This document shows positions 7,742-51,631 of a DNA stretch of 64,000 nucleotides, piece after piece. The stretch spans positions 128,001-192,000 of the forward strand of contig JADJFV010000035.1 of NCBI GenBank assembly GCA_016708435.1, written 5' to 3'. Positions within the stretch are counted from its first letter, which is position 1, and every line of letters starts with the position of its first letter. The translations under genes and the position numbers were made by a program. Under the pieces are notes generated by a model. It had not been told where the DNA came from. It worked only from the letters and a program-made list of their open reading frames with translations, and ran no database searches. This stretch comes from Leptospiraceae bacterium (GTDB lineage Bacteria; Spirochaetota; Leptospiria; Leptospirales; Leptospiraceae).

Positions 7742-8344
7742 TTACAAAGGATTCAGAATAAAGATTTTCAAAAGCTGAAAACTTTGCTGGATATTTTTAC
7801 TAAGTAGAGTCTTATTAGTCTTAGCCTCTACTAACTCAAATTCAAATTCTGTATCGAGTTGATGATGGGAAAAAGGTAATCCAAAGGGTAATAAATAGAT
7901 ACCGAATACACTTAATCCGTACAAAGTATATGTTCTTTTAATATCTGTTTTTAAAATCTTTCCACGCAATATAAAATCGGCATCTTTACTATCAGACTCA
8001 GTGGCTACATATACTTCTTTGAATTTTTGATAAGACTGGATTTCTTTTTTCAAAGCATAAGTTAGGACTTTATTGGTTTGATAAAAAGCAAACGGCTCAA
8101 ATATTCTTTTATGTGAATTATCTGTTTCCCAAAGAACGAATGGGAACAAAATATAACCCATGTCAGTTTCATAATCTTTCTGCCTCAAATCTTGCATTAA
8201 TTCAATCGCAAATGATTTTGAAATTTTTTCACTTTCAATTTTTTTTGGTTTAGGTATAAAAAAAAATCTGTTTTGAATATTACAGTTTATAAAGAAAAAC
8301 ATAAGGAAAATAAGAATAAGCCGCTTTAAAAGAGTTAGATTCAT
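7742..8344 (-). CDS. Putative lipoprotein (paralog of the upstream gene)
   Basis: Signal peptide plus lipobox 'FFINC'. The C-terminal half aligns with the neighbour (KDADFILRGKILK / TEFEFELVEAKTNKTLL versus KDADFLISCKLKK / TEFELELKEIKTNQVVL). Confidence 0.5.
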   Translation of the reverse strand: MNLTLLKRLILIFLMFFFINCNIQNRFFFIPKPKKIESEKISKSFAIELMQDLRQKDYETDMGYILFPFVLWETDNSHKRIFEPFAFYQTNKVLTYALKKEIQSYQKFKEVYVATESDSKDADFILRGKILKTDIKRTYTLYGLSVFGIYLLPFGLPFSHHQLDTEFEFELVEAKTNKTLLSKNIQQSFQLLKIFILNPL

Positions 8345-29012: not shown

Positions 29013-29660
29013 ATGAATACAACCACAATGGAAAAAGAAAAAACGGTTGTTCCTGTAGAATCAGAGATTCTTTCAAAACCAGCCACAGCTAATTTTGAAG
29101 GACAGACTCCGCTTCATGTAGCAACAAATCAAGGTGATATCGAACTGGCAAGAACGTTAATCGCCAAAGGTTCCGATGTAAATGCTGTCACAAATTTCTG
29201 GCATACGCCTTTGCATTATGCGGTAAACCGTGGAGGTTACGAAATTGCAAAACTACTTTTAGATAGTGGTGCTAAGGTAAATGCTCTAAGTAATTTCGAT
29301 TACACTCCGCTTCATTATGCCGCTAACCATGGAAAGGTAAGAGTCGCTGAACTTTTAATTGACAAAGGGGCTGCACTAAATATTCAAAATACTTTCGGTC
29401 ATACTCCTCTTCATTGCACGGCTAATCATCCGAAGATTCAATCTGATTGCGATAATTGTAAGAATGGTCGCTATATATTCTGTGGGGGAGTCCATGGTCG
29501 GACTGAAATCGCAAGATTGCTCGTCGATAAAGGTGCAAAGTTAAATTTAGAAGATGGAGATGGAAATACAGCTCTCGAAATTGCCAAAAAGTTTGGCTAT
29601 GCCGAAATGGTGCATATAATTGAAGCAGGATTATTAATGCATACTAGAAGAATGGGTTAA
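29013..29660 (+). CDS. Ankyrin-repeat protein (paralog A)
   Basis: Four to five ANK repeats ('GxTPLHxAxxxGHxExxxxLLxxGA'). Confidence 0.85.
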   Translation: MNTTTMEKEKTVVPVESEILSKPATANFEGQTPLHVATNQGDIELARTLIAKGSDVNAVTNFWHTPLHYAVNRGGYEIAKLLLDSGAKVNALSNFDYTPLHYAANHGKVRVAELLIDKGAALNIQNTFGHTPLHCTANHPKIQSDCDNCKNGRYIFCGGVHGRTEIARLLVDKGAKLNLEDGDGNTALEIAKKFGYAEMVHIIEAGLLMHTRRMG

Positions 29661-36745: not shown

Positions 36746-37612
36746 TTACTTCTTTGTGAAATTTTTCTTTTGTAAGTTTTTAATTTGGTGAATGGAAAGA
36801 CCGGTGACTTCGGAAATAAAATCAGGCTTAAGATTTTTAGAAAGCATGGTCTGAGCAATCTCAATATTTCTTTGTTCAATTGCTTCTTCTTTTGATTTTT
36901 CGAGTTGGTATTCCGTGCGGGCTGCATAGTCTCTTTCTGTTTTGAGCCATGCTTCGTAGTATTCACGAGATTTCTTATCATGGGAAACAAACTTCAATTC
37001 GTCTAAAGCTTTTTTAATTTTAGGATTTTTCTTTTTTAAAGTCTTCATTTGTTCCCCCTTTAATTTTGTTGCTTCTTTTAGCAGATAAACCCAGTCATCC
37101 AAAGGACTTTGCGATGAATGGAAAGTCTTTATATATTTAGGTAATTCTATGATGTAGATGTTTAAATTATCTGTCAACAGAATTTCAGGCTTGTTTTTAT
37201 CAGAAATCTGAAAATACCATAGGAATTTTTCTTCTTTCGGGAATATTTCAAAGTTCACAAAATTGAAAGAATAAATTCTAGGAAGCTCTGAGTATTTTTG
37301 ACCCTTCGAAATTGACTTTGAATATAGTTTCGCCCAATAGTATAGAATTCTCTGGGAGAAGAATTTTTGATAAGAGGCTTGCATTTCGATCAGGAATTTA
37401 TTACCAGTCGCATCAACTGCTTTAATATCCAACACAATTACTTTTTCTGTATTCCTATCTTTTGGAATTTCTGGATTCAAAACTTTAAGGCTAACAATGC
37501 GTTTCTCCTTTTGGAATTCTGGAAAGGAATTCAGAAGATTCATCAATACATCTTCATGCTTGGAAAAAACTGCCTTAAATACGAAATCATTTGTAAGAGG
37601 AAGGAGCTTCAT
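36746..37612 (-). CDS. Rpn/YhgA-like recombination-promoting nuclease / putative transposase (PD-(D/E)XK)
   Basis: N-terminal 'LTNDFVFKAVF' (family hallmark) and the nuclease core; 288 aa. Confidence 0.65.
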   Translation of the reverse strand: MKLLPLTNDFVFKAVFSKHEDVLMNLLNSFPEFQKEKRIVSLKVLNPEIPKDRNTEKVIVLDIKAVDATGNKFLIEMQASYQKFFSQRILYYWAKLYSKSISKGQKYSELPRIYSFNFVNFEIFPKEEKFLWYFQISDKNKPEILLTDNLNIYIIELPKYIKTFHSSQSPLDDWVYLLKEATKLKGEQMKTLKKKNPKIKKALDELKFVSHDKKSREYYEAWLKTERDYAARTEYQLEKSKEEAIEQRNIEIAQTMLSKNLKPDFISEVTGLSIHQIKNLQKKNFTKK

Positions 37613-38139
37613 TCTGCGCAGAATTATAGCATTGCGGCTAATGGAAATACTATTTTGAAAAAAGTTTGGTTTATTACATAGTTTGACAAGTTTTTGTCGC
37701 TAGAGCGTAATCTGATTCAATATACTTCCGATAGCCTGTCGTTTACTCCTCTTCGGTCTACCTGCGCTTATTTCTACGGTGATTTTGCGGTGTAAGTTGG
37801 GGTGGGTAACCGATGTTAGACCGAAGCTATAAGCGTAGCTAGACCGGGGGAGAGTAAAAGGAAGCTGAAAGGAATCCCTTTCTAGATACTCGAAGAAATG
37901 AAATTCATTGGCTCGAATTTTTATGCTTTTTATTGATTTTGTTCATTTCCTCGACTATGATAAATATCATAGTCGAGAAAATTTCAAATTAATAAAAAAA
38001 TCTTTGACTTTTTTGAAAACCATTACTCTAACTACTAACACAGATTTATAGAGGAGACGAATTTTTCAATTCAGGTAACCTATAAATCAAAAAGCATACA
38101 TATAAATATCGATTAAAAACAAGAGGATGGAAAATTACT

Positions 38140-38715
38140 ATGAACAGAGAGTTAATAAATATTAAAGGAACACATGAAAAAGTAGAATTTGAAAGTATTT
38201 TAAATGTGCACGGAAAGAACGAAGAAGGACAGACTCCTCTTCATATGGCGGCAACTCGCGGTCATATTGAGTTAGTTGCTTCGCTAATTGAAAGAGGAGC
38301 TGATCTAAATCCTAAGAGTAATTTTGGTTATACCCCGCTTCATTATGCTGCCAACCAAAGTGGTGTTGATATTGCAAAGCTTCTAATCGATAATGGTGCC
38401 GATGTGAATGCAAAAAGCGATTTCGAATATACTCCCCTTCATTATGCAGCACATCATGGCAAGACAGAGATTGTTAAACTTCTTATTGAGAAGGGAGCTA
38501 CTATCAGCAGGCAGAATATGTTTGGTTTCACTCCTCTTCATTATGCTGCAACACATGGACGAGTCGAAGCCGCTAAAGTTCTGGTTGAAAAAGGTGCTGC
38601 TTTGCATCTCGAAGATGAAGATGGGCATACTGCATTGGAACTTGCCAAAAAATCTGGTTATGCCCAAATCGCTGAAATGATTGAACGCACCATGAAGAGA
38701 TCTAAGCTTATTTGA
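38140..38715 (+). CDS. Ankyrin-repeat protein (paralog B)
   Basis: Five ANK repeats, about 55 % identical to 29013..29660 over the repeats and the C-terminal tail. Confidence 0.85.
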   Translation: MNRELINIKGTHEKVEFESILNVHGKNEEGQTPLHMAATRGHIELVASLIERGADLNPKSNFGYTPLHYAANQSGVDIAKLLIDNGADVNAKSDFEYTPLHYAAHHGKTEIVKLLIEKGATISRQNMFGFTPLHYAATHGRVEAAKVLVEKGAALHLEDEDGHTALELAKKSGYAQIAEMIERTMKRSKLI

Positions 38716-38716
38716 A

Positions 38717-39358
38717 TTACTGATTAAAAAGCGGTTTGAGAATTTGTGTTCTGATCTCTTCCGCTTTTTGAGTTTCCCCAAACATTTTCCCCTCGTGATC
38801 GACTAGAAAGAAAGTATCCTTTGCTCGTTGTGTAATATTGTCTGTGTCGATGATTCCAGATAAAATATTAATTTTATTTTCTAAAAGGACCTTTGTTACA
38901 TGGTATAGAAGACCTCGACCCGAGTCAGCTTCGATATAAAAACAAGTTTGCTTTCTGTCTAATTCATCTTGAAAAATAAGCTCAGCACGCTCGCGAAAGA
39001 AATTTTTAATGATAGGTGCTTTGAATTCATGATTTAGAAAAAGCTCTTCTAGGCCTTTTCGTTTTGAAAAGATTGCGTCCATCATCAAACCAATCTCTAC
39101 AGCTTTTTTGGTTCCCATATTGGATTCTGCTTTGAGTCGAAGCGTGTCGATAGCGTATTCGGTTCCATTTTCTTCTACGGTTAGAATTTCTCCTGAAATA
39201 ATATCCCAGCCTAGAAGAAATATGACGGAAGCCATTCGGTGGAATGTCCCAATCTCTGTAACATCTGTCTTGAGTGTCACTAGAATTTCATCGTCTAGTG
39301 TTTTGTAATGGAAATCAATCATCGCATGTAAGTATTTTCTTAATACAATTATAATCAA
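38717..39358 (-). CDS. Tandem ACT-domain protein
   Basis: Two beta-alpha-beta-beta-alpha-beta-like regulatory modules ('ILVTLKTDVTEIGTFHRMASV', 'CFYIEADSGRGLLYHVTKVLLENKINI'). Confidence 0.4.
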   Translation of the reverse strand: MIIIVLRKYLHAMIDFHYKTLDDEILVTLKTDVTEIGTFHRMASVIFLLGWDIISGEILTVEENGTEYAIDTLRLKAESNMGTKKAVEIGLMMDAIFSKRKGLEELFLNHEFKAPIIKNFFRERAELIFQDELDRKQTCFYIEADSGRGLLYHVTKVLLENKINILSGIIDTDNITQRAKDTFFLVDHEGKMFGETQKAEEIRTQILKPLFNQ

Positions 39359-39371
39359 TTAGAAATTCTTA

Positions 39372-39671
39372 CTATTCTGGGAGGAACCAGGTTTCGAATT
39401 CTTTTTGGAATTTGACGGGAATGTATTCGGTGAAATGATAATTAGCAAAATCATTCTTTGCAAAAGGATCTTCCTTACAAAAATCTTTCATCGCTTCTAA
39501 GCTTTCTGCTCTTGCAATTAAGATTCCTCCATCTCTTGGATTTTGTGGACCTGAGCTTAAAAGAATTTTTCTTTGATAACCTGAATCTAAGAATTCTCTA
39601 TGCTGAGTGAGGACCGTATCAATTTTCTCTATTGGGACTTTGTATTCTAAACGGATGATGAAATGTTTCAT
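39372..39671 (-). CDS. YciI-like (Dabb-fold) protein
   Basis: 'HREFLDSGYQRKILLSSGPQ' and 'KEDPFAKNDFANY' match the YciI family pattern; 99 aa. Confidence 0.65.
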   Translation of the reverse strand: MKHFIIRLEYKVPIEKIDTVLTQHREFLDSGYQRKILLSSGPQNPRDGGILIARAESLEAMKDFCKEDPFAKNDFANYHFTEYIPVKFQKEFETWFLPE

Positions 39672-39769
39672 ATATTTCTTAGATTTTAAAGGGTAACTTG
39701 CTCTACAAGTGAAAAATTATTTTGTTTACTTTTATTCGTGTAATAGTTTGATTTACTCTGGATGGCAAT

Positions 39770-41353
39770 ATGTTTAAACGAAACCTTATTTTTTATTTAT
39801 TAATTTCCACTTTCTTTTTTTCCTGCATTCCTCCTTTTCAGAAGAAGGAAAAAAAAGACAATCTTGGTCTTTACCTTCTGGCTGCTCGATTATTAAATAC
39901 TAACTCTTGTGTCGGCGGATTTTGGGCGCTGAGCCTTACCTCGAATGCTTATTCTTGTCAGCCCGCTAAACTTGTGGCATCAGGCACCAATATTGAAATT
40001 TATGAACAGACAGGTCTTTCGGCTGAGACAAATTATTCTGGCTTTAAGTATTCCAATGTTGTAACTGCTTTCGATACGATTATATATCCCAAGATGACGA
40101 ATGCCTTTGGTGCTCCTACTGATATTGATGGGAATAAAAAAATTACTGTTTTTGTTTTAGACATCGGGAGTGGAGTAGGCGGCTATGTTGATCCAGTTCA
40201 GTTTATTCAAGACTACCCCGATGATATTACGTTTAGGTCAAATCAGAAAGAACTCATCTATCTAGACGGCAACGCCTTATTAGCCCTTCGAAAGAAAGAA
40301 TTGTCTGCTAACTTGCCGGATACTTTTTTATCTAGCCTCGCTCATGAATACCAACACTTAATCAGGATGCAGCATGAGCTTGGGTTTAAGACTCTTATCC
40401 GCACACTAGATGATGTTACGAATAAAACTTTGACCTTTGATGATACTTGGATCAATGAAGGAACGAGTGAAGTGGCAAGTGATATTGCAGGTTATGGTCC
40501 ACAATCTTCTAGAATGGCATGTTTTAGAGGGGATCCTGCAACTAGTTGCGTAGAGGGCGCTGCTGGTTTTTCGCTTATTACATGGGAATCGTCTATTCGC
40601 AATTACGCGTCCGCTTATACTTTTATGTCCTACTTATACAATGTATCTGGAAGCACGGATACTGAAAAGACTGCGTTTATTAAAAATACAGTTGTGGGTA
40701 ATAGCTCTAAGCTTCGAGCCAATACATTGACTAATATGATGACTCTTTTTCAATCTGCGGCTAAGTATAATTCGACGCTTCTAGGTGCTGATGCAACCGG
40801 CATATATAGAAGATTATATGCTACCTTTCTTTCGCAGGCATTTAATCCAAATCGATATCCGGGAACATCTACTTTATTTATTGGCACATCTACTATTGGC
40901 ACAATGAGTGCATTACAGACTGCGTATCCATTGCCTTCTGTGTTAAATCCAATTTATACCTACGCGTCCAATTTTGGAATTGTAAAGGGCTCTACATTTT
41001 TAATATACCCATCTGCCTTCTATCGAGTATCTGAAAATTCTTCCATTGCACCGGATAATGTAGACACTGTTAAAATTTGGAATGGAAGCCCAGGTGCCTT
41101 TGGTCCTGAATTTATTATCTTTAACGGAAGAATAGATACAACTCCAGTCTTGTCAAATGGAAGTATTCTTTCTGAGAAGAACTCTTCTGAAGTGAACACA
41201 AGAATGGCTACAACAGAAAATTTGAAATGGACTCCGCTCATTTCTAAGACAGGTGAGTTATTTTGTCCGCATTCTTTTGTTTCAAGAGAACGGTTTGCCG
41301 CTAAACAATTCAATATGCAAAGGCGATTCAATACCAATCAGATATTGAAATAA
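39770..41353 (+). CDS. Putative zinc metallopeptidase lipoprotein (HExxH)
   Basis: Lipobox 'FFSC'. 'LAHEYQHLI' (HExxH) with a downstream 'NEGTSE' glutamate, the gluzincin arrangement. Confidence 0.45.
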   Translation: MFKRNLIFYLLISTFFFSCIPPFQKKEKKDNLGLYLLAARLLNTNSCVGGFWALSLTSNAYSCQPAKLVASGTNIEIYEQTGLSAETNYSGFKYSNVVTAFDTIIYPKMTNAFGAPTDIDGNKKITVFVLDIGSGVGGYVDPVQFIQDYPDDITFRSNQKELIYLDGNALLALRKKELSANLPDTFLSSLAHEYQHLIRMQHELGFKTLIRTLDDVTNKTLTFDDTWINEGTSEVASDIAGYGPQSSRMACFRGDPATSCVEGAAGFSLITWESSIRNYASAYTFMSYLYNVSGSTDTEKTAFIKNTVVGNSSKLRANTLTNMMTLFQSAAKYNSTLLGADATGIYRRLYATFLSQAFNPNRYPGTSTLFIGTSTIGTMSALQTAYPLPSVLNPIYTYASNFGIVKGSTFLIYPSAFYRVSENSSIAPDNVDTVKIWNGSPGAFGPEFIIFNGRIDTTPVLSNGSILSEKNSSEVNTRMATTENLKWTPLISKTGELFCPHSFVSRERFAAKQFNMQRRFNTNQILK

Positions 41354-41409
41354 AAAACTTGTTTATAATTCTGTAATACTCATTCTGGTATTAATAAAAG
41401 GATACGTGT

Positions 41410-42426
41410 ATGCCCGTTGCTGACTATTTTAAAGTGAGTTTTAAAAAACCAGAGTTAAGTGAATCGATCGCTCAGATTATAGAAAAAAAAGCGAAGTTAA
41501 AAAGCCAATTAGAATCATGCTACTCTAGACTCGAGTCTATTGAAATTTGTAACAGCAATGCAAAATCAAGTGATGCTCTTATTCTAGCAAATTATCTCAT
41601 TGCGGATATTGCGAATTTGGCGCTATCTTACTTTAATAAACCCGCAATTTTAAATACCGATAATTGGCTAGATAAAATAAAAACCATTTCCGATGAAGAG
41701 ATTTCTTCTAGTTTTAATGCGCATAATTTGATTCTTACTTCTGCATACAAGACAGAAGAAGAAAAAAGTGAAAAAGTAGAAACCTCTCTTGCTGATTTAC
41801 TCTATTCGATTGAAAAATTTATATTTAAAAAGAACAAAGCTCAGTTTGCAAATCCTGTGGATGATTTTAAAAAGAAATCTGCCATTCAAGCCATTATAAG
41901 CATAATTGTAGTTATCCTCTTGCTCAACGTTGGCATTAAGCAATTCAATAAATTAAAACCAATTAAGAGTGACACTGCAAAAATTTATTTCATGAACGCG
42001 CAAGCTCCTGCACCGGTTGCGGCTAATACGGTTACTGCTGAAGTAAAACCTTCCGAAGAATGGAAAGATGTTAGTTTCGTTTTTCCTCAGCCGACAGATA
42101 TCAAAGACATTAAAGTTGAGCCAGTGCATCAAAATTTTGCAAGGATGCAATTAAAAGAAATAAAATACTTAGATGAAAGTAAAAGTGTATTGAGAGAAAG
42201 AAATTTCCAACTCAGCAAAATTGGAATGATCGAAAACACAGAGACAAATGAAATTTGCTGCACGGAAGACTTGAAGCCAGGAAAACTTATTCCCGGTGCA
42301 TACTTCGAAGTAGAATCAACAAGTGCAAATCCAGCCTTCTATGTAAAAATGGAAAATACGAAAGCAGTAAAAGAAATCATTTTAACATTCCGCTATATTA
42401 AGAATACTAAGAAGTTTGCGGATTAG
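41410..42426 (+). CDS. Hypothetical single-pass membrane protein (cytoplasmic N-domain, TM, extracytoplasmic C-domain)
   Basis: 338 aa with a central TM 'IQAIISIIVVILLLNVGI'. First gene of a tightly spaced four-gene cluster. Confidence 0.35.
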   Translation: MPVADYFKVSFKKPELSESIAQIIEKKAKLKSQLESCYSRLESIEICNSNAKSSDALILANYLIADIANLALSYFNKPAILNTDNWLDKIKTISDEEISSSFNAHNLILTSAYKTEEEKSEKVETSLADLLYSIEKFIFKKNKAQFANPVDDFKKKSAIQAIISIIVVILLLNVGIKQFNKLKPIKSDTAKIYFMNAQAPAPVAANTVTAEVKPSEEWKDVSFVFPQPTDIKDIKVEPVHQNFARMQLKEIKYLDESKSVLRERNFQLSKIGMIENTETNEICCTEDLKPGKLIPGAYFEVESTSANPAFYVKMENTKAVKEIILTFRYIKNTKKFAD

Positions 42427-42432
42427 GAATAT

Positions 42433-43329
42433 TTGCCTCAAATGCTAGTTCAATACATATTATTAATGCGTGTTCACCAGTGGATTAAGAACACCATTAT
42501 ATTTGCAGGGATCATCTTCGGTCACAAGTTATCAGACACAGATGCCTTATTAAAAAGCTTCTTTGCGTTTATCATATTTTCTGTAATTGCTAGTTGCCAG
42601 TATGTAGTGAATGATTATCTCGATAGAAAGGAAGATGCACTTCATCCTGAAAAGAAACATCGCCCTCTTGCCTCCGGCAAAATTGAAGCAGGTCTTGCTC
42701 TTCTGATAACTGTTTTTATTCTTCCGATTTCCTTGATACTTTCTTATACACTCCATCCTTACTTCTTTGCACTCTGTAGTTTTTATTTCGGATTCAATCT
42801 AGTATATAGCAAATATTTAAAACATATTGTTATCTTAGATGTGATGAGTATCAGCATTGGTTTTGTTGTGCGTGCCATTTCGGGAGCGGTTGTGATTGGT
42901 GTAAGCTTTTCGTCTTGGCTTTTACTTTGCACTTTTATGCTTGCTCTCTTCTGGGGATTTAGCAAGAGAAGAGGAGAACTGATTCTATTAGAAAAATCAG
43001 CAACTTCTCACCGCAAAATTTTAGAAGAATACTCTCCTCAGTTTTTAGATTTAATGATGTCGATTGCATCTACAATGACATTGATTAGTTACGTCATGTA
43101 TACCATTAGCCCCGACACGATTCAAAAGATGGGAACAGACAAGCTTGTATATACAATTCCTATTGTTGTCTACGCAATTTTTAGAAGTCTATACATCATC
43201 TACATCAAGAATATGGGGCATAATCCTAGTAAGGCGATACTCACCGACATAAGCGTGTTAGCCTCCGGACTCGTATGGGTTCTCATGGTGACAGTGATTC
43301 TATACTTTAAAATACCTTCTATCCAATGA
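42433..43329 (+). CDS. UbiA-family prenyltransferase (decaprenyl-phosphate phosphoribosyltransferase-like)
   Basis: 'NDYLDRKEDALHPEKKHRPLASGKI' (the first Asp-rich motif) and multiple TM helices. Confidence 0.8.
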   Translation: MPQMLVQYILLMRVHQWIKNTIIFAGIIFGHKLSDTDALLKSFFAFIIFSVIASCQYVVNDYLDRKEDALHPEKKHRPLASGKIEAGLALLITVFILPISLILSYTLHPYFFALCSFYFGFNLVYSKYLKHIVILDVMSISIGFVVRAISGAVVIGVSFSSWLLLCTFMLALFWGFSKRRGELILLEKSATSHRKILEEYSPQFLDLMMSIASTMTLISYVMYTISPDTIQKMGTDKLVYTIPIVVYAIFRSLYIIYIKNMGHNPSKAILTDISVLASGLVWVLMVTVILYFKIPSIQ

Positions 43330-43835
43330 AAGTATTTCGCAAAATCTTAGAGTATTCCTTTTATATTTTAGTCGTCCTTTGCTTTACTTTTTTGCTTTCA
43401 CTCTTCAATGGGAATGGCAGGAAATTAATCTTTCAACCTGCTGATTATCCTTTACTGACAGAGTCAAAGATTTCACCTGAGTTTAATCAAAAAAACAAAG
43501 TCATTTATTTTTGGGCAACCTGGTGCAGTGTATGTCAAACAAATCTTAATCTATTTAAGAGCAGCTACTCTATGTTAAATGGTAAATACAATACAGAGTT
43601 TATCTCGGTAGAAGAAGGCGGCGGGAATGCTTTGTATGTAAAGAAATATATAGAGAAAAATGAAATCAATTTTCCTACTGTGTTTGGAAATCAAGCACTC
43701 TTAGAGGCTAATAAGATTTATGCGTTCCCCACAACAGTCTTTGTTAATGAAAAAAATGAAATTAAATTTATTGATACAGGAATTATGAATCCACTCAGTA
43801 TTTGGATTCGAATCCTGTTTTTATATTGGAGTTAA
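43326..43835 (+). CDS. TlpA/ResA-like thioredoxin-fold thiol-disulfide oxidoreductase (membrane-anchored)
   Basis: 'FWATWCSVCQ' (WCxxC). N-terminal anchor. ATGA overlap with the UbiA gene. Confidence 0.75.
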   Translation: MKVFRKILEYSFYILVVLCFTFLLSLFNGNGRKLIFQPADYPLLTESKISPEFNQKNKVIYFWATWCSVCQTNLNLFKSSYSMLNGKYNTEFISVEEGGGNALYVKKYIEKNEINFPTVFGNQALLEANKIYAFPTTVFVNEKNEIKFIDTGIMNPLSIWIRILFLYWS

Positions 43836-43836
43836 A

Positions 43837-45039
43837 ATGATTGATTTAAAAACGTTACAAAAATTAAAATTGGAATTATTCAATAGTCTAATAGCAGAAG
43901 CTAACCAATCTCTTACTAAATTACCAAAAGAGCATCGCAAAAAGTCTGAGTCAATTCTAAAGCAATACATTGATACAAAGTCGATTGCAGGTCTTGAGTT
44001 GTGGGTAAATGGAGTATCCGAACATCTATATTTTTCAGAAGCAATGAAAGATTTAAAAGAAATCGGAAATGATTCAACTTTACTAACAGAATTTCAATCA
44101 GCTTTCACTGAAACCTTGAAAGCTGATTTTGGAGTAGAGGATTTTCGCTTTATTGAATGGGAAAGGGCTAAACCAACGTATCCGACACTGCAAGGTCTAT
44201 TAAAGACTTACTGCGACCAAGCGCTTACTCCTTGTTATACCCTAAATGACAATGTATTTCTCGGAACAGAATCTGATTTGACTACTTTCGAGAAAGCAGA
44301 TGGTCCTTCTAAGAAAGGAGTGAAAGTAAAAATAGTTCGTAAGAAAACTCCAAAGGAAAAGCTGATTCAAATCCAAGAAGCGCAAGAATTCTTAGAAGCA
44401 TTCTGGCCTGATGGATTTGCGTTATACAAGCTATTAACCGATAAATTGCATATTGTTCAATCGAATGGACTTGTAAGTTACAGTCATTTTCATGAGCAGG
44501 GAATTTCGTATATTAACTTTATAGACAGAGATATACTTGAGTCTATTGATGATTTGATTCATGAAAATGCTCATCATCATCTCAATTTAATCCTAAAGAA
44601 ATACAATCTGATTAAAAAAGAATTTAAAGATGATATTTTTTATTCTCCCTGGAGAAAAACGCTAAGACCTCTTTATGGAATCTTTCATGCTACGTTTACA
44701 TTTTCCTATGCTGCTTTACTTTTTTACCATATTGCAAAATCAGAGAATTGGACTTATACAGACTTAGATGAAACCTATAAGCAGAGAGCCTACTTTCGAT
44801 TTGCCGAAGAAACTCTTTATGTTCAGTATTCTCTCTTTGATTTACACTGGGCTATCGACAAAGGACTATTTACCGCAAAAGGAATTAGCTTGATTGAAAG
44901 CCTGGAAAAATACAACCAAGAATGTCTTTCTTTCTTACCAGATGTAAAAAAGAAAATCAAATCTAAAGACTTAAGGCATGAATTAGACCAAGTGCAAAAG
45001 GTATTACGGGAATGCAGAGCTAAATACAAATTAGCTTAA
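43837..45039 (+). CDS. HExxH-motif protein (putative metalloenzyme; resembles the 'HEXXH motif domain' family seen near peptide-modification genes)
   Basis: 'SYSHFHEQG' and 'LIHENAHHHLNL' followed by 'YSPWRKTLRPLYGIFHATFTF'. The family match is from memory. Confidence 0.35.
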   Translation: MIDLKTLQKLKLELFNSLIAEANQSLTKLPKEHRKKSESILKQYIDTKSIAGLELWVNGVSEHLYFSEAMKDLKEIGNDSTLLTEFQSAFTETLKADFGVEDFRFIEWERAKPTYPTLQGLLKTYCDQALTPCYTLNDNVFLGTESDLTTFEKADGPSKKGVKVKIVRKKTPKEKLIQIQEAQEFLEAFWPDGFALYKLLTDKLHIVQSNGLVSYSHFHEQGISYINFIDRDILESIDDLIHENAHHHLNLILKKYNLIKKEFKDDIFYSPWRKTLRPLYGIFHATFTFSYAALLFYHIAKSENWTYTDLDETYKQRAYFRFAEETLYVQYSLFDLHWAIDKGLFTAKGISLIESLEKYNQECLSFLPDVKKKIKSKDLRHELDQVQKVLRECRAKYKLA

Positions 45040-45115
45040 AGAGAAAATTTAACAGAACGGGGTTAAAAAATTTGAATTCACACTTGTAATCAAAGCTATC
45101 GGTGTGCATCGGTGT

Positions 45116-45682
45116 TTATCTTTTTTTCAGATCTTCCAGTATATTCAGGTTCATCTTTTCGATTAAGTCGCTTTCGAAGTTAAAACGATTGTGATTATCT
45201 TCAGAGGAGAATTGAATCATTCCTTTGGCAAAGAAGTATAACCCAAACCAATAGTTAAGTCTTTGTGCTCGGTTTGATTGAAATACAATGTCACCATTCT
45301 TTTTTAGGAGTCGAAATTTTTCACTTAGTTCAATGGTTTGAAAATAAGGAACTAGGGTTAGAGTAAATACTGTAAAGAAAGGCAAATAGCGATTATTCTC
45401 TTTACGGGTTTGGATTTCTATTTCAAGAATCAAATCTGCTTTTTCTATATCAGTTTGGATATTTGGAAATTGACCACTGTCTTTCAATTGAGCAAGAAGA
45501 GCATTGTAGCTAGATTCGGATTTGCCCTTAAATCCATTTCTATAGGACTCTTGGTTAAGAATGAAATAAACCGAAGACGTTACCGGCTGATTCATATTTG
45601 CCGCTTCTGGAAACAGGGGAAGAGGATTTCCTTTTTGTATGACCGCGCATTTTAAAATGAGTAACAGTAGAAGGAATCTCAT
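45116..45682 (-). CDS. Hypothetical lipoprotein
   Basis: Signal peptide plus lipobox 'ILKC'. Confidence 0.4.
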   Translation of the reverse strand: MRFLLLLLILKCAVIQKGNPLPLFPEAANMNQPVTSSVYFILNQESYRNGFKGKSESSYNALLAQLKDSGQFPNIQTDIEKADLILEIEIQTRKENNRYLPFFTVFTLTLVPYFQTIELSEKFRLLKKNGDIVFQSNRAQRLNYWFGLYFFAKGMIQFSSEDNHNRFNFESDLIEKMNLNILEDLKKR

Positions 45683-46353
45683 TTTGCCTCCCAGTTCTTT
45701 AAGATGTTTTGTATTGCGAGATTTAGCATTTCACTTCGTTTCAAGTTTGCCTCTGTAGCCTTATCATAGTAAAGCAAATTACTATTAAACTCTGTTTGCA
45801 GTTGAATTGGAATTCTCGCTTTCTCCTGATTTTTATTATTGTATGCAATTAAATTTCCTGAATAGTCCATTTTACTAATTGTATCCGGTCCTCCTAAAAG
45901 ACTGTAGACTAAAAACCCATAGGAACTTCTTACCAAGTATTGACTGATTGCAAGACCGGTAAGACCAACTGGGAATAGTAAGTGATGAAATTTTTCTTTT
46001 TCTTCTAATTTGGAAAATTGAAACTCTAAAATGATAGCATTCTCAGGAAGCTTTGTGTCTTTCGAGTAGAGTATATTTACTTTTTCAAATTGATTTAATT
46101 CTCTTACAAACTTATAGAGAGTATAAGTAGTAAATGTATTTACATCCTCTTTGGGATTATCGTGATTAAACTCCGGCAGGCTAACAAGCTTTATCCAAGC
46201 ATGGAGATTCTTCTTTTCTTTTACAGAAAGAGGGTCTTGGGCTGCGAAATGAATTTTGCTTTCTTGATAGGAAAAGCATCCTATGAATCCAGTTGGAATT
46301 GCTAATAGAATAAAAAAGTATTTCAAGATAAAAATAGGCAGATTCTTTTGCAT
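45679..46353 (-). CDS. Hypothetical lipoprotein
   Basis: Signal peptide plus 'FIGC'. Overlaps the downstream gene. Confidence 0.4.
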   Translation of the reverse strand: MQKNLPIFILKYFFILLAIPTGFIGCFSYQESKIHFAAQDPLSVKEKKNLHAWIKLVSLPEFNHDNPKEDVNTFTTYTLYKFVRELNQFEKVNILYSKDTKLPENAIILEFQFSKLEEKEKFHHLLFPVGLTGLAISQYLVRSSYGFLVYSLLGGPDTISKMDYSGNLIAYNNKNQEKARIPIQLQTEFNSNLLYYDKATEANLKRSEMLNLAIQNILKNWEAK

Positions 46354-46461
46354 AAAACAATCTTATAGGGCAAATAAAAAATACAAGTAGATAAATGTAG
46401 GATTGTGGTAACTTGTCCTAAAGAGAAAATTATTCTAGACTTTCTTTAGGATTGATTAATC

Positions 46462-48267
46462 TTGTTGTCTATGAAATCTATTAGTGCATTAATACTGACT
46501 TTTTTATTTTCCCTGTCCCTTTTTTCGCAGTCGAGAACGCCTGAAAATATTCTAGAGCCAAATAAATTTGAGACACCTAGAGAAACATATATAATATTTA
46601 TGAAAGCGATGGAAGATTATCGGAAGGGAATGCAATCCAAGAATAATCAAATGATTGCAGAGCTTGACACAGCAGTGCGATGTTTAAATTTAGATGGCGT
46701 TCCCTTTGCACTGAGAACTGAGAAAGGTAGGGAATCTGCCATTTTACTGAAAGAAGTAATTGACAGAATTGCTGTTCTTGATCCTTCTAGTATTCCCGAA
46801 GTGGGGGATAAGCCTGATATACCACTTACGAAATGGACGTTTGAAAGAACGGAAATCTCAATGACAAAAGTAGAAAGTGGAGAGAGAGCGAATGAATTTT
46901 TATTTTCCCGTGAGACAGTTGCACGAGTGTATGAATTCTATGCAAAGACAAAGCATCTTTCCTATTTACCTAATAGCGGTGGAGGGGCAGGATACAAAGA
47001 TCCCTGGTCAGAAAGTCTTCCCGGTTGGATGAAGTTTAAGATTTCTTCTATTTATGTCTGGCAGATAGTCGGTATTATCCTCTCTATTTTATTTGGTTAT
47101 GTCATCAAATGGTTTACTAAATTTTTAACTCATTTCATTACTCGATTAGTAAACCGTGTGCCACAGGGAAAGATTAATTGGAAAGAAAAATTCCTATCTT
47201 TTTGTGATAAGCCTCTTTCTTATATTGTCACCATTGGATTTTGGTTTTTTTGTTTAGACGTTTTAGATATCGAAGGAGGAGCCTTTAGAGTCAGTAGCAT
47301 ACTCTTACAGATATTACTCAGCATAAACATTATTCGCCTCTTCTATGATTTGACAAAAGCATCTACCGAATACTTAGAAGTAGTCGCTAAGGAAAATAAG
47401 AATGATTTCTTAATTGATGCCCAGATTATCCCTTTGATTTCAAGAACTGCACGGATACTTGTCGTTTTACTCGGAAGCCTATTTGCATTACAAAATCTAG
47501 GTGTAAATGTAATGTCAGTGCTTGCAGGACTGGGAGTAGGAGGTCTTGCACTTGCACTTGCCGCAAAAGATACAGCGGCAAATCTATTTGGTTCTATCAT
47601 GATTTTTCTAGATAGACCCTTTAAACTAGGCGATACAGTCATTGTAGGAGGAATAGAAGGAGATGTAGAAGAAATTGGATTTCGCTGCACACGAATTAGA
47701 ACTTTCTATGATTCAGTAGTGTCTATTCCGAACTCGGAGGTAGCAAATTCAAAAATAGACAATATGGGGCTAAGAAGATATAGGCGCACAAATGTAACGA
47801 TTGGACTTACCTATGATACTCCTCCGCAAAAGATAGAAGCATTCCTTGAAGGGATAAAGAATATCCTTCGTAAGAATGAACTAGTCGTTCAAGATAGAAT
47901 TCATGTAATATTCAAAGGCTTTGGGAGTTCTAGTCTGGATATACTATTAAATTATTTTGCAACCGTTACAGAATGGGGGCAAGACATGATTTTGCGCCAG
48001 AATATTTATTTAGAAATTATCACTCTTGCCAAAGAATTAAAAATAGACTTTGCATTCCCTACGCAAACACTTCATATCGAATCGACACCGGGGCAAACAG
48101 CTATTAAGCGAGAACATTCACAATCTACAGAAGAATTAAAACAAACAGCAAAGAATTTTGCCAGAGAAGGAAAGTCTTCTCGTCCTACAGGTTTTGGTAT
48201 ATTCATTCATCCAAGCCGTGAGCATAAAAACACAGATGTTGGCGTTGAATTCAAGGAGCAGAGTTAA
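46462..48267 (+). CDS. MscS-family mechanosensitive channel with a large N-terminal periplasmic domain
   Basis: TM3-beta domain signature 'IMIFLDRPFKLGDTVIVGGIEGDVEEIGFRCTRIRTFYDSVVSIPNS'. Confidence 0.8.
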   Translation: MLSMKSISALILTFLFSLSLFSQSRTPENILEPNKFETPRETYIIFMKAMEDYRKGMQSKNNQMIAELDTAVRCLNLDGVPFALRTEKGRESAILLKEVIDRIAVLDPSSIPEVGDKPDIPLTKWTFERTEISMTKVESGERANEFLFSRETVARVYEFYAKTKHLSYLPNSGGGAGYKDPWSESLPGWMKFKISSIYVWQIVGIILSILFGYVIKWFTKFLTHFITRLVNRVPQGKINWKEKFLSFCDKPLSYIVTIGFWFFCLDVLDIEGGAFRVSSILLQILLSINIIRLFYDLTKASTEYLEVVAKENKNDFLIDAQIIPLISRTARILVVLLGSLFALQNLGVNVMSVLAGLGVGGLALALAAKDTAANLFGSIMIFLDRPFKLGDTVIVGGIEGDVEEIGFRCTRIRTFYDSVVSIPNSEVANSKIDNMGLRRYRRTNVTIGLTYDTPPQKIEAFLEGIKNILRKNELVVQDRIHVIFKGFGSSSLDILLNYFATVTEWGQDMILRQNIYLEIITLAKELKIDFAFPTQTLHIESTPGQTAIKREHSQSTEELKQTAKNFAREGKSSRPTGFGIFIHPSREHKNTDVGVEFKEQS

Positions 48268-50904: not shown

Positions 50905-51273
50905 GTGAAGAAATATAAATCAAGATGGTTTCAAAAGTGGGCAAATAAGAACCATCTTTCTGATAAAGCTCTGATTGATTCCATTCAGGATTTGAAAGAG
51001 AATAAAGGGACTGTTAAGCTGGGCTTTAATTTATTTAAAGTTAGAGTTTCTTCTCGCAATCAAGGAAAGAGAGGGGCTTTTAGAACTATTGTTGTTTATG
51101 TATCGGATGTCCGTTCGATTTATGTTTTTGGTTTTTCTAAAAATGAATTGGATAATATTTCAAATAAGGAATTAGAAGATTTTAAAGAATTAGCTAGAAC
51201 ATACACGAACATGAATGAAAAGGAAATTAAAATCCTTTTAGAGCAAGATTCTATTTTTGAATTGGAGGAATAG
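50905..51273 (+). CDS. RelE/ParE-superfamily toxin (HigB / Gp49-like)
   Basis: 'GAFRTIVVYVSDVRSIYVFGFSKNELDNISNKELEDFKELA'. A GTG start is inferred. Immediately followed by an HTH antitoxin. Confidence 0.55.
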   Translation: MKKYKSRWFQKWANKNHLSDKALIDSIQDLKENKGTVKLGFNLFKVRVSSRNQGKRGAFRTIVVYVSDVRSIYVFGFSKNELDNISNKELEDFKELARTYTNMNEKEIKILLEQDSIFELEE

Positions 51274-51274
51274 T

Positions 51275-51631
51275 ATGTCAAAAAAAATGAAAGAAGCAAT
51301 TGTGGAGAATTTGCAAGATATTGTCAATGCAGGTATAAAAACTACATTTACTAAAAAAAGATTGGATGAACTCGGAGTAAAAATCCAAGCAACAAATATA
51401 AATCCCACTAAAATAAAAAAAGCTAGAAAGAATCTAAATCTAAGTCAATCCATATTTGCACAGTTACTGAATGTCAGCATTGCCTCAGTCAGACATTGGG
51501 AACAAGGATTGAGAGAGCCAACAGGTTCTACAAAAGTTTTATTGGAATTGTTATTAAAACAACCGCATATACTTGATTATAGAATTACAAAATCAAAACA
51601 AAATGGGCTCGATACAAAGTTTGAGTATTGA
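51275..51631 (+). CDS. XRE-family HTH antitoxin (HigA/NadS-like)
   Basis: 'LNLSQSIFAQLLNVSIASVRHWEQGLREPTGSTKVLLELL' is a canonical NadS/HigA-type HTH. Confidence 0.65.
   Translation: MSKKMKEAIVENLQDIVNAGIKTTFTKKRLDELGVKIQATNINPTKIKKARKNLNLSQSIFAQLLNVSIASVRHWEQGLREPTGSTKVLLELLLKQPHILDYRITKSKQNGLDTKFEY

What the first reader, a model, noticed from the sequence alone, without database searches (positions are those of the whole stretch)
39770..45039. Cluster of HExxH lipoprotein, single-pass membrane protein, UbiA prenyltransferase, TlpA-like thioredoxin and a second HExxH protein
Four plus-strand genes (41410-45039) are spaced -4 to +7 nt apart. They combine a decaprenyl-phosphate-phosphoribosyltransferase-like UbiA enzyme, an extracytoplasmic thiol-disulfide oxidoreductase, a 400-aa protein with HFHE / HENAHHH metal motifs and an uncharacterised bitopic protein. 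A zinc-metallopeptidase-like lipoprotein gene precedes them. This mix (lipid-carrier prenyl chemistry, extracytoplasmic redox, metalloenzymes) matches no pathway I know. It looks like an envelope glycolipid or peptide-modification system.
Basis: partly seen in the sequence, partly recalled or inferred. Interest (0 to 1): 0.7.

Follow-up and report, generated by a model that had tools for sequence, protein, structure and literature searches.

The report
Leptospiraceae lipid-linked ribose operon with odd partners
Four tightly packed genes form an operon conserved across the Leptospira family; it is built around an enzyme that loads ribose phosphate onto a membrane lipid carrier, and its three undescribed partner proteins may explain where the abundant arabinose and xylose of the Leptospira cell surface come from.

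Summary
All five ORFs exist as described. The four plus-strand genes (41410-45039) are separated by +6, -4 and +1 nt.

**Family assignments**
- UbiA (42433-43329) is a phosphoribosyltransferase that uses PRPP and polyprenyl phosphate, not a quinone or heme prenyltransferase. It scores 426 bits on NCBIfam NF008977. It keeps 15 of 17 mapped ligand-contact or catalytic-motif residues of M. tuberculosis Rv3806c, and the other two changes are conservative.
- The 169-aa protein is a membrane-anchored TlpA/ResA-like CxxC thioredoxin.
- The 400-aa protein belongs to the recently characterised αKG-HExxH dioxygenase family (TIGR04267; ChlH fold).
- The 338-aa protein has a cytoplasmic four-helix bundle, one transmembrane helix and a periplasmic β-sandwich. 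It belongs to a tiny family of its own.
- The upstream lipoprotein is an M30 lugdulysin-like zinc peptidase. It is not a conserved member of the cluster.

**Conservation across Leptospiraceae**
- UbiA-Trx is always present.
- The bitopic gene is nearly always present.
- The HExxH gene sits directly after Trx in about half of the loci, with protein identity as low as 34%.
- No precursor peptide or other RiPP gene is present.

**Interpretation**
The most likely reading is an envelope module that makes a lipid-linked pentofuranose donor. The thioredoxin and the bitopic protein would be new accessory partners, and the hydroxylase an optional one. The roles of these partners are inferred, not shown. 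I rate this a new variant of a known kind, of moderate to high interest.

The parts
41410..42426 (+). Bitopic membrane protein (338 aa). N-terminal cytoplasmic four-helix bundle (about 18-146), one transmembrane helix (about 149-182), C-terminal periplasmic β-sandwich (about 188-331). First gene of the conserved module.
42433..43329 (+). UbiA-superfamily phosphoribosyltransferase acting on PRPP and polyprenyl phosphate (PPPRS/DPPR-synthase homologue). 298 aa from TTG 42433, or 295 aa from ATG 42442.
   Evidence: NF008977 426 bits against a cut-off of 234; Pfam UbiA 2.8e-23. Full-length match to M. tuberculosis Rv3806c (8j8j), E 1.4e-32. Of 17 mapped Rv3806c ligand-contact or catalytic-motif residues, 15 are identical and 2 conservative (Q135N, Y157F). 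All 17 are invariant in the 15 module UbiAs (residue roles from PMC10994848 and PMC11127046). It is 62-92% identical across Leptospiraceae.
43326..43835 (+). Membrane-anchored TlpA/ResA/StoA-like thiol-disulfide oxidoreductase (169 aa). N-terminal signal-anchor helix, WCxxC active site, conserved hydrophobic C-terminal tail.
   Evidence: Pfam AhpC-TSA 36 bits, Redoxin 32.6, Thioredoxin_8 32.5, all above cut-off. NCBIfam StoA and ResA hits lie below the equivalog cut-offs. PDB StoA 3erw E 4.9e-10; ResA 1.3e-8. FWATWCxxC, EEG, the cis-Pro 'PT' and the DTGIxNPxS motif are conserved in 15 orthologues. It follows UbiA in every Leptospiraceae locus examined.
43837..45039 (+). Cytoplasmic αKG-HExxH-type Fe(II)/2-oxoglutarate dioxygenase (400 aa). 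A lineage-variable fourth gene of the module.
   Evidence: TIGR04267 55.7 bits against a cut-off of 40. PDB sequence match to ChlH 8s5f E 1.8e-6 over HExxH...SPWR..LRP..HA.F. Model pLDDT 93.6 and pTM 0.89. Best Foldseek hits are ChlH (E 7e-10, probability 1.0) and SjiH. Invariant across 34 homologues: D238 D239 H242 E243 H246 H247 N250 S270 P271 W272 R273 R277 H284 R321 E325. No hydrophobic helix. Found directly after Trx in 13 genome and 10 metagenome loci; absent from at least 9 otherwise syntenic loci.
39770..41353 (+). Neighbouring lipoprotein: an M30 (hyicolysin/lugdulysin)-like zinc metallopeptidase of 527 aa. It is part of the finding but not of the conserved module.
   Evidence: PDB lugdulysin 7bb8 E 4.2e-13, aligned through AHEYQH and W(I/L)NE. 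Weak NCBIfam flagellinolysin hit. Homologue upstream of the module only in L001, L002 and L009.

Best explanation
Genes 41410-45039 form a Leptospiraceae-specific envelope operon. It is built around a membrane phosphoribosyltransferase.

**Shown**
- The UbiA protein has the complete PRPP, Mg2+ and polyprenyl-phosphate binding residue set of the mycobacterial DPPR synthase.
- In every Leptospiraceae locus examined it is immediately followed by a membrane-anchored CxxC thioredoxin-fold protein.
- It is nearly always preceded by a family-specific bitopic protein.
- The αKG-HExxH dioxygenase is an add-on, present directly after the thioredoxin in roughly half of the loci.
- The upstream M30 peptidase lipoprotein is unrelated to the unit.

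**Inferred mechanism**
1. At the cytoplasmic face, UbiA transfers 5-phosphoribose from PRPP to polyprenyl phosphate. This makes a lipid-linked pentofuranose precursor.
2. As in the mycobacterial arabinan pathway and the enterobacterial three-component systems, enzymes encoded elsewhere dephosphorylate it, optionally epimerise it, flip it across the membrane and use it to glycosylate an envelope glycan in the periplasm.
3. The target is plausibly the arabinose- and xylose-rich leptospiral LPS.
4. The bitopic protein (cytoplasmic helical bundle, transmembrane helix, periplasmic β-sandwich) acts as an accessory or regulatory subunit that links the two sides of the membrane.
5. The thioredoxin keeps a periplasmic partner or acceptor in the correct thiol state.
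6. Where present, the HExxH enzyme hydroxylates a cytoplasmic protein segment of the machinery. The bitopic protein's N-terminal domain is the best candidate.
For: **Enzyme identity**
- Family scores and the full-length match to Rv3806c.
- Residue mapping: 15 of 17 identical, 2 conservative, all invariant in the 15 module UbiAs.
- PMC10994848 states that the phosphoribose-binding sites are not shared with ordinary UbiA prenyltransferases, so these residues discriminate.

**Module conservation**
- The same order and strand, with short gaps, in L006-L010, L012, L015, L018-L023 and L090-L097, L099, L108, while the flanks vary.
- UbiA-Trx also occurs in cultured Leptospira of the P1, P2 and S clades.

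**Link between the bitopic protein and the hydroxylase**
- Leptospira sp. GIMC2001 carries a second, decayed copy of the module.
- In that copy UbiA is a frameshifted relic (residues 45-84 and 236-281) and Trx is gone, but the second bitopic paralogue and the HExxH gene are intact and adjacent.

**Topology**
- Predicted topology puts the UbiA active site, the helical bundle and the HExxH enzyme in the cytoplasm, and the Trx domain and β-sandwich outside (family precedent for TlpA/ResA).

**Precedent**
- Pathways that start with a PPPRS: PMC11127046.
- Leptospiral LPS contains 20-36% arabinose and about 20% xylose: PMC4628369.
Against: - None of the genes that complete known PPPRS pathways (HAD or PAP2 phosphatase, MATE/SMR flippase, GT-C transferase, DprE1/E2 or ORF13-type epimerase) lies in the module or was recognised in the 64-kb window.
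- A more distant UbiA relative outside Leptospiraceae does have the usual HAD partner.
- No known PPPRS system uses a thioredoxin or a hydroxylase, so their roles rest on position alone.
- No residue of the bitopic protein co-varies with the presence of the HExxH gene.
- HExxH homologues also occur away from any UbiA: after an MBOAT, after MoeA, before QueG, and in about 62 Nitrospira loci.
- The ring form and configuration of leptospiral Ara and Xyl are not established in the paper cited. They could come from UDP-sugar routes.
- Pathogenic and intermediate Leptospira lack the bitopic gene, so it is not essential for UbiA function.
Confidence: 0.5

Rival explanations
1. The core and the hydroxylase are not functionally coupled. 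UbiA-Trx (with or without the bitopic protein) is the real unit. The αKG-HExxH gene is an independent cytoplasmic protein or peptide hydroxylase that landed at the 3' end of this operon in some lineages and is carried along by co-transcription.
For: - The HExxH gene is absent from at least 9 otherwise syntenic loci (L088, L098, L100-L104, L106, L107).
- In Leptospira-type loci it looks like an insertion between Trx and the conserved p256 gene.
- Homologues sit in unrelated contexts: L004 after MoeA, L017 after an MBOAT, L013 and L014 before QueG, L005 in Bacteriovoracaceae, and Nitrospira.
- No bitopic residue tracks its presence.
Against: - Adjacency with gaps of about 55 nt or less is kept while the protein diverges to 34-42% identity and the flanks change.
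- 15 of 19 informative Leptospiraceae HExxH loci are module-linked.
- In GIMC2001 the HExxH gene stayed beside a retained bitopic paralogue while the UbiA copy between them decayed.
Confidence: 0.25
2. The HExxH dioxygenase tailors the lipid-linked sugar rather than a peptide. It would oxidise or epimerise polyprenyl-phospho-ribose, or hydroxylate the carrier. This would be the counterpart of the optional epimerases that diversify the pentose in known three-component systems.
For: - It is the optional last gene next to a PPPRS, just as epimerases are the optional component in PMC11127046.
- It is cytoplasmic like the UbiA active site.
- No peptide substrate gene is present.
- It also occurs directly after another membrane glycan-modifying enzyme, an MBOAT, in L017.
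- Leptospiral LPS holds Ara and Xyl, which are C2 and C3 epimers of ribose (PMC4628369, PMC11127046).
Against: - Every characterised αKG-HExxH enzyme acts on peptide residues: His, Asp, Phe, Gln, Asn, Pro (PMC12636437, PMC13060819).
- Nothing in the model or the sequence was tested for lipid or sugar binding.
- Cultured Leptospira whose LPS contains Ara and Xyl appear to lack the gene at this locus.
Confidence: 0.12
3. This is a RiPP-like peptide-modification cluster. The HExxH enzyme would hydroxylate a ribosomal precursor, which the other membrane proteins would then process, lipidate or export.
For: - TIGR04267 membership and the ChlH fold.
- All known members are RiPP tailoring enzymes (PMC12636437, PMC13060819).
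- A peptidase gene lies upstream.
Against: - No free short ORF in or beside the operon. Gaps are -4 to +6 nt, and the only small ORFs overlap genes.
- No radical SAM, MNIO, YcaO, transporter or leader-peptidase genes.
- The peptidase is not conserved with the module.
- The UbiA has a PRPP site, not a prenyl-diphosphate site.
- The hydroxylase is dispensable in half of the loci.
Confidence: 0.05
4. This is an ordinary cofactor prenyltransferase paired with a redox partner: heme O synthase, or a menaquinone or ubiquinone prenyltransferase, with a cytochrome-maturation thioredoxin.
For: UbiA-superfamily enzymes for heme O are often near Sco/TlpA-type thioredoxin-fold proteins (general knowledge). 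The Trx resembles ResA and StoA.
Against: - Scores lie far below the curated cut-offs for CyoE/CtaB (34.6 against 210), UbiA (36 against 275) and MqnP (24.5 against 375), but above the cut-off for the DPPR-synthase model.
- The phosphoribose and pyrophosphate contact residues of Rv3806c are conserved.
- No cytochrome or quinone genes are adjacent.
Confidence: 0.03

Closest known systems
Polyprenyl-phosphate phosphoribosyltransferases: M. tuberculosis Rv3806c (DPPR synthase), P. aeruginosa PPPRS and C. youngae ORF15. These are the entry enzymes of the DPA/arabinan pathway and of the 'three-component' periplasmic pentofuranosylation systems (PMC10994848, PMC11127046).
   Same: - Same fold family, with a full-length alignment to Rv3806c (E 1.4e-32).
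- The N-D-x-x-D-x-x-x-D and K-R-x-x-E motifs are conserved.
- The K/R cluster, the Tyr and Lys residues that bind the 5'-phosphate, and the Lys residues that bind the lipid phosphate are conserved.
- It passes the curated cut-off of NCBIfam NF008977.
   Different: - No fused or adjacent phosphatase, and no flippase, GT-C transferase or epimerase in the locus.
- Instead it is flanked by a bitopic protein, a thioredoxin and, in some lineages, an αKG-HExxH dioxygenase or the p256 protein.
- It scores below the cut-offs of the other two DPPR-synthase models, NF008976 and NF008978. I did not establish which model holds the experimentally characterised enzymes.
αKG-HExxH peptide β-hydroxylases: ChlH, BpmH, PflC/PosC, PesO, SjiH (TIGR04267 / IPR026337).
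   Same: - HExxH...SPWR..RP...HA.F signature.
- Predicted fold best matched by ChlH (8s5f) and SjiH (22ob).
- Above the curated family cut-off.
   Different: - Stand-alone, with no precursor peptide and no radical SAM, MNIO or other RiPP genes.
- It is embedded in an operon of membrane proteins.
- Only about 15% identity to ChlH over the structural alignment.
- The substrate is unknown.
TlpA/ResA/StoA extracytoplasmic thiol-disulfide oxidoreductases.
   Same: N-terminal membrane anchor, thioredoxin fold, WCxxC motif and cis-Pro.
   Different: - Below all equivalog cut-offs: StoA 53.5 against 210, ResA 52 against 170, TlpA 15.5 against 230.
- Not next to cytochrome c maturation, Sco or sporulation genes.
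- It has a conserved hydrophobic C-terminal tail and a DTGIxNPxS motif of its own.
M30 peptidases (hyicolysin, lugdulysin). This applies to the upstream lipoprotein only.
   Same: HEYQH zinc motif and the downstream NE ligand segment align with lugdulysin 7bb8 (E 4e-13).
   Different: It is a lipoprotein with a roughly 230-aa C-terminal extension. It is not conserved with the operon.

Membership tests
PPPRS / DPPR synthase (Rv3806c-type UbiA phosphoribosyltransferase) | Full-length homology to a characterised member, and a score above a curated family threshold | tested here: met
   8j8j E 1.4e-32, residues 8-284 against 17-293. NF008977 426 bits against a cut-off of 234.
PPPRS / DPPR synthase (Rv3806c-type UbiA phosphoribosyltransferase) | Mg2+/ribose ligands N73 and D77, plus the Asp-rich loop (N-D-x-x-D-x-x-x-D) | tested here: met
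   Window N60, D61, D64 and D68 are present and invariant in the 15 module UbiAs.
PPPRS / DPPR synthase (Rv3806c-type UbiA phosphoribosyltransferase) | Phosphoribose- and pyrophosphate-specific contacts that ordinary UbiA enzymes lack (R22, K28, Y70, K87, R90, Q135, Y138, K143, Y157, K191, K208) | tested here: met
   Nine of the 11 are identical. Q135 becomes N122 and Y157 becomes F144; the paper notes that Phe occurs at this position in some mycobacteria (PMC10994848).
PPPRS / DPPR synthase (Rv3806c-type UbiA phosphoribosyltransferase) | Catalysis: PRPP + polyprenyl-P gives polyprenyl-P-ribose-5-P | not testable with these tools
   Needs the membrane enzyme assay used in PMC11127046.
Three-component periplasmic pentofuranosylation system (Kelly et al. 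2024) | PPPRS together with a phosphoribose phosphatase (fused HAD/PRP domain or a separate enzyme) | tested here: not met
   There is no phosphatase domain in the 298-aa protein and none in the module. A distant non-Leptospiraceae relative does have an adjacent HAD.
Three-component periplasmic pentofuranosylation system (Kelly et al. 2024) | Linked MATE/SMR flippase and GT-C (GT136-like) glycosyltransferase | tested here: not met
   Neither is in the module nor among the annotated neighbours. A 437-aa polytopic protein inserted in the GIMC2001 locus has no Pfam, NCBIfam or PDB match. Such genes could lie elsewhere in the genome, which was not searchable here.
αKG-HExxH dioxygenases (TIGR04267) | HExxH iron-binding motif within the family signature, above the curated cut-off | tested here: met
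   H242-E-N-A-H246. 55.7 bits against a cut-off of 40. The motif and S270 P271 W272 R273 R277 H284 are invariant in 34 homologues.
αKG-HExxH dioxygenases (TIGR04267) | ChlH-type fold | tested here: met
   Model pLDDT 93.6. Foldseek to 8s5f gives E 6.8e-10, probability 1.0, TM 0.49-0.59. The next hit is SjiH; all other hits have E above 0.01.
αKG-HExxH dioxygenases (TIGR04267) | A RiPP context: an adjacent precursor peptide and partner maturases | tested here: not met
   No free short ORF and no RiPP enzymes. This is a contextual feature of the known members, not a requirement of the protein family.
αKG-HExxH dioxygenases (TIGR04267) | Fe(II)/αKG-dependent hydroxylation activity | not testable with these tools
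   Needs an enzyme assay.
TlpA/ResA-like thioredoxins | Thioredoxin fold with CxxC and cis-Pro, plus an N-terminal membrane anchor | tested here: met
   Pfam domains above cut-off. WCSVC at 66-70 and the 'PT' cis-Pro motif are conserved. Hydrophobic helix at 7-25.
TlpA/ResA-like thioredoxins | Equivalog-level identity with ResA, StoA, TlpA or DsbE | tested here: not met
   All scores are far below the curated cut-offs. It is a family member, not an orthologue of any named enzyme.
HEPN domain (for the bitopic N-terminal bundle) | Rx4-6H catalytic motif | tested here: not met
M30 zinc peptidase (upstream lipoprotein) | HExxH plus a downstream Glu ligand, aligned to a solved member | tested here: met
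   7bb8 E 4.2e-13, with AHEYQH and WxNE aligned.

The most novel reading that the evidence does not exclude
Leptospiraceae run a so far undescribed kind of lipid-linked pentofuranose pathway. In it, the PRPP-dependent polyprenyl-phosphate phosphoribosyltransferase works in a fixed complex with a periplasmic thioredoxin and a transmembrane 'bundle plus β-sandwich' subunit. An αKG-HExxH dioxygenase, a family known only from RiPP tailoring, has been recruited either to hydroxylate a membrane-protein partner or to modify the lipid-linked sugar itself. This pathway would be the source of the abundant arabinose and xylose of leptospiral LPS.
Probability: 0.2. Interest if true: 0.75.

Novelty: new variant of a known kind. 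Interest (0 to 1): 0.55.

Why it matters
**Leptospiral LPS.** LPS defines serovars, drives host adaptation and is the main vaccine antigen. About 40-55% of its sugar is arabinose plus xylose (PMC4628369). A full-text search for Leptospira together with 'decaprenyl' and 'phosphoribosyltransferase' found no paper. A family-wide, highly conserved PPPRS with fixed partners gives a concrete, testable entry point. Its mycobacterial homologue is considered an attractive drug target (PMC10994848).

**Enzymology.** This would be the first αKG-HExxH dioxygenase tied to a membrane glycolipid module rather than to a RiPP cluster. It would also be the first PPPRS paired with a thioredoxin instead of a phosphatase, flippase and GT-C set.

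If the coupling proves spurious, the result is still useful annotation. It gives four correct family assignments and removes the peptidase from the cluster.

Tried and rejected
1. **Precursor-peptide search.** All ORFs of 20 aa or more in 39300-45200 were listed. Nothing lies free in the intergenic gaps of -4 to +6 nt, and the flanking small ORFs overlap genes. Rejected.
2. **RNA elements, promoters, terminators, repeats.** Rfam at E ≤ 0.1 found nothing in 38000-47000. Promoter-like and terminator-like sites did not exceed the shuffled controls. There were no meaningful repeats.
3. **Is the bitopic protein the hydroxylase's substrate?** I aligned 22 HExxH-linked and 9 HExxH-free bitopic proteins. 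No residue is specific to the linked set, so this is neither supported nor excluded.
5. **Nitrospira homologues.** Their conserved neighbours (NFACT, PKD protein, permease, response regulator, a classical 2OG oxygenase) gave no functional lead.
6. **The 437-aa polytopic protein in the GIMC2001 locus.** I suspected a GT-C transferase from a DGFGYY motif. It has no Pfam, NCBIfam or PDB match, so I do not claim this.
7. **Heme-O, menaquinone or ubiquinone prenyltransferase.** Rejected on curated scores and active-site residues.
8. **Window-wide scan for phosphatase, flippase or GT-C genes by size and TM count.** No candidate lies near the module. A GT2-like gene at 4755-5474 is 35 kb away and was not pursued.
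9. **Morishita et al. 2024 (the ChlH structure paper).** It is not in the library. The iron and αKG ligand assignments for the HExxH protein therefore rest on motif alignment and on secondary descriptions.

Full report
**1. Observation**

The window is AT-rich, about 35% G+C. It is 99.1-99.6% identical to contigs of an uncultured Leptospiraceae bacterium: GCA_016720625.1 contig JADKKG010000006.1 and an ENA metagenome scaffold.

All five ORFs of the finding are present at the stated coordinates.
- The four plus-strand genes at 41410-45039 are separated by +6, -4 and +1 nt.
- The UbiA gap is +15 nt if its ATG at 42442 is used, as the gene callers did.

**2. Family assignments**

UbiA (42433-43329)
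- It passes the curated cut-off of NCBIfam NF008977, 'decaprenyl-phosphate phosphoribosyltransferase' (426 bits against 234).
- It falls far below the cut-offs for heme O synthase, UbiA, MqnP, chlorophyll synthase and the archaeal lipid prenyltransferases.
- Its best solved relative is M. tuberculosis Rv3806c, aligned over the full length (E 1.4e-32).
- I mapped the residues that the Rv3806c cryo-EM paper identifies as contacts (PMC10994848, section read): Mg2+, ribose, the 5'-phosphate, the pyrophosphate and the decaprenyl-phosphate head group. I added the catalytic-motif residues mutated in C. youngae ORF15 (PMC11127046).
- Of 17 positions, 15 are identical and two are conservative (Q135N; Y157F, a substitution the paper notes in some mycobacteria). 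All 17 are invariant in 15 orthologues from the conserved module.
- The paper states that the phosphoribose-binding sites are not shared with ordinary UbiA prenyltransferases. This is therefore a discriminating test, and the enzyme passes it.

The 169-aa protein
- It is a thioredoxin-fold protein with three Pfam domains above cut-off.
- It has an N-terminal hydrophobic anchor and conserved WCxxC and cis-Pro motifs.
- Its best solved relatives are StoA and ResA.
- It reaches no equivalog cut-off. It is TlpA-like, but not an orthologue of a named enzyme.

The 400-aa protein
- It passes TIGR04267, now named 'aKG-HExxH-type peptide beta-hydroxylase' (55.7 bits against 40).
- It aligns with ChlH through the HExxH...SPWR..LRP..HA.F signature.
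- A confident model (pLDDT 93.6) finds ChlH and SjiH as its only significant structural matches.
- The signature residues are invariant in 34 homologues.
- Characterised members hydroxylate His, Asp, Phe, Gln, Asn or Pro in RiPP precursors, and one also cleaves the backbone (PMC12636437, PMC13060819).

The 338-aa protein
- It has no significant family match; the only NCBIfam hits are marginal (E 0.019 and 0.097, far below cut-off).
- Its model (pLDDT 89.9) shows a four-helix bundle, one long transmembrane helix and a β-sandwich.
- An exhaustive profile search finds only 71 representative clusters among 1.84 billion proteins. Most are 330-345 aa long.

The upstream lipoprotein is an M30 lugdulysin-like zinc peptidase (7bb8, E 4e-13).

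**3. Conservation**

Scan centred on the HExxH protein
- Scanning one genome per species with an alignment of the HExxH protein returned 352 loci. I searched the best 80, in six frames, with the window's proteins.
- The block bitopic-UbiA-Trx-HExxH occurs in the same order and strand in 13 other Leptospiraceae genomes: L006-L010, L012, L015 and L018-L023.
- In these, HExxH identity falls to 34% and bitopic identity to about 20-30%. The flanks differ.
- The peptidase lipoprotein recurs only in the closest relatives.
- Four Leptospiraceae loci carry the HExxH gene elsewhere: after MoeA (L004), after an MBOAT (L017) and before QueG (L013 and L014).
- About 62 Nitrospira loci and one Bacteriovoracaceae locus have homologues with no UbiA or Trx nearby.

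Scan centred on UbiA
- In a UbiA-centred metagenome scan, every Leptospiraceae-type locus has Trx directly after UbiA.
- Nearly all have the bitopic gene before it.
- Ten have the HExxH gene directly after Trx and eight do not.

Cultured Leptospira
- Species from all clades carry a UbiA orthologue at 62-71% identity.
- Saprophytes have bitopic-UbiA-Trx-p256.
- L. yasudae (P1 clade) and L. inadai (P2 clade) have UbiA-Trx-...-p256 without the bitopic gene.
- p256 is a very conserved soluble protein with no family match. Where both genes are present, the HExxH gene lies between Trx and p256.

The layered picture is therefore:
- UbiA-Trx is universal.
- The bitopic gene is nearly universal.
- p256 or the HExxH gene is a lineage-specific addition.

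UbiA is by far the most conserved protein of the set.

**4. A natural experiment**

Leptospira sp. GIMC2001 has the canonical bitopic-UbiA-Trx. This is followed by an unassigned polytopic protein, then a second bitopic paralogue, a 290-nt stretch, and the HExxH gene.

The 290-nt stretch encodes two frameshifted fragments of a UbiA, residues 45-84 and 236-281. A second copy of the whole module has decayed there. UbiA and Trx, which were redundant, were lost. The bitopic paralogue and the hydroxylase were kept side by side. This is the best evidence I found that the hydroxylase is tied specifically to the bitopic protein. It is a single case.

**5. What it most likely does**

The first chemical step is well supported: transfer of 5-phosphoribose from PRPP to a polyprenyl phosphate at the cytoplasmic face.

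In all characterised systems the product is dephosphorylated, sometimes epimerised to Araf or Xylf, flipped, and used by GT-C enzymes outside the cytoplasm (PMC11127046). None of those genes is in the module or was recognised in the window. A more distant UbiA outside Leptospiraceae does have the usual HAD neighbour. The downstream steps are therefore inferred and must be encoded elsewhere.

Leptospiral LPS holds 20-36% arabinose and about 20% xylose in both a pathogen and an intermediate species (PMC4628369). That makes LPS a plausible destination, but the ring form was not determined there.

Predicted topology places the UbiA active site, the helical bundle and the hydroxylase in the cytoplasm, and the thioredoxin domain and the β-sandwich outside. 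From this I infer the following:
- The bitopic protein is an accessory or regulatory subunit that spans the membrane.
- The thioredoxin serves a periplasmic partner.
- The hydroxylase modifies a cytoplasmic protein segment, most likely of the bitopic protein.

These three assignments rest on position and topology only. No residue of the bitopic protein tracks the presence of the hydroxylase.

**6. Rivals**

- The main rival is that the hydroxylase is merely co-located with the module (0.25).
- A more novel rival is that it tailors the lipid-linked sugar, taking the place of the optional epimerases of known systems (0.12).
- A RiPP cluster is unlikely (0.05). There is no precursor ORF, there are no partner enzymes, and the hydroxylase is dispensable.
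- An ordinary cofactor prenyltransferase is excluded by scores and active-site residues (0.03).

**7. Novelty and verdict**

Each protein except the bitopic one belongs to a known family. The combination has no described counterpart. A full-text search for Leptospira with 'decaprenyl' and 'phosphoribosyltransferase' found nothing, and the papers I read on αKG-HExxH enzymes treat them only as RiPP-tailoring enzymes.

I class it as a new variant of a known kind: a PPPRS-based envelope module with unprecedented partners. Interest is moderate to high because it makes the origin of leptospiral LPS pentoses directly testable, and because it places an αKG-HExxH dioxygenase outside RiPP biosynthesis.

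Noticed in passing
L003:5156-9281 (Leptospira sp. GIMC2001, CP115468.1): A partial second copy of the module. It holds an unassigned 437-aa polytopic protein, a second bitopic paralogue (6645-7709), a frameshifted and internally deleted UbiA relic (7721-7998), and then the intact HExxH gene.
   Followed up: yes
L088:8431-9204, L003:9300-10070, L086:10080-10859, L121:6506-7276, L122:6436-7209 and others: A very conserved soluble protein of about 256 aa with no Pfam or NCBIfam match follows Trx (or the HExxH gene) in Leptospira-genus loci. Conserved segments include FKPKPLLNKSELRQIK, YYKEPIWIEYYIPKESRFA and LIKRRN..WE...DEDF. It has no homologue in the 64-kb window.
   Followed up: partly
L017:8599-11149; L004:6800-9203; L013:6639-8811: Homologues of the HExxH protein sit in other operons: 2 nt after an MBOAT (AlgI/DltB-like) acyltransferase, 4 nt after MoeA at the end of a molybdenum-cofactor operon, and overlapping the start of a QueG-like gene.
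   Followed up: partly
L024-L085 (Nitrospira genomes, e.g. N. moscoviensis L034:9137-10831): About 62 Nitrospira species carry a longer homologue of the HExxH protein (ORF of 530-600 aa). It matches only residues of about 150-390. The conserved neighbourhood holds an NFACT/RqcH-like protein, a PKD protein, an amino-acid permease, and a classical 2OG oxygenase a few kb away. No UbiA or Trx is present.
   Followed up: partly
L086 and L121 (L. yasudae, L. inadai): Pathogenic and intermediate-clade Leptospira lack the bitopic gene upstream of UbiA. L. yasudae has eutBC there, and L. inadai has a 480-nt gap with no detectable relic. L. inadai has a DSBA-family gene after p256.
   Followed up: partly
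L001:9491-9999 (GCA_016720625.1), equivalent to window 43326-43835: The thioredoxin gene is split into two ORFs by a single indel in this public MAG assembly. It is intact in the window and in L002. This is either an assembly error or a strain-specific pseudogene.
   Followed up: partly
window 45042-45075, against L002:5828-6029: The closely related contigs L001 and L002 carry about 170 extra bases between the HExxH stop codon and the next gene. The stretch has short inverted cacgaag/cttcgtg repeats. The window has 33 unrelated bases there. This may be a small mobile or repeat element.
   Followed up: no
window 36746-37612 (-), 38140-38715 (+), 29013-29660 (+): A 288-aa protein has an N-terminus typical of PD-(D/E)XK Rpn/YhgA-type 'transposase-like' nucleases (judged by eye, not tested). 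An ankyrin-repeat protein was confirmed by Pfam. A second probable ankyrin-repeat protein lies at the third site.
   Followed up: no
window 50905-51631 (+): An adjacent pair of small genes. In the equivalent contig L001 they carry the Pfam RelE and MqsA-antitoxin/HTH_3 domains, so this is a toxin-antitoxin pair.
   Followed up: no
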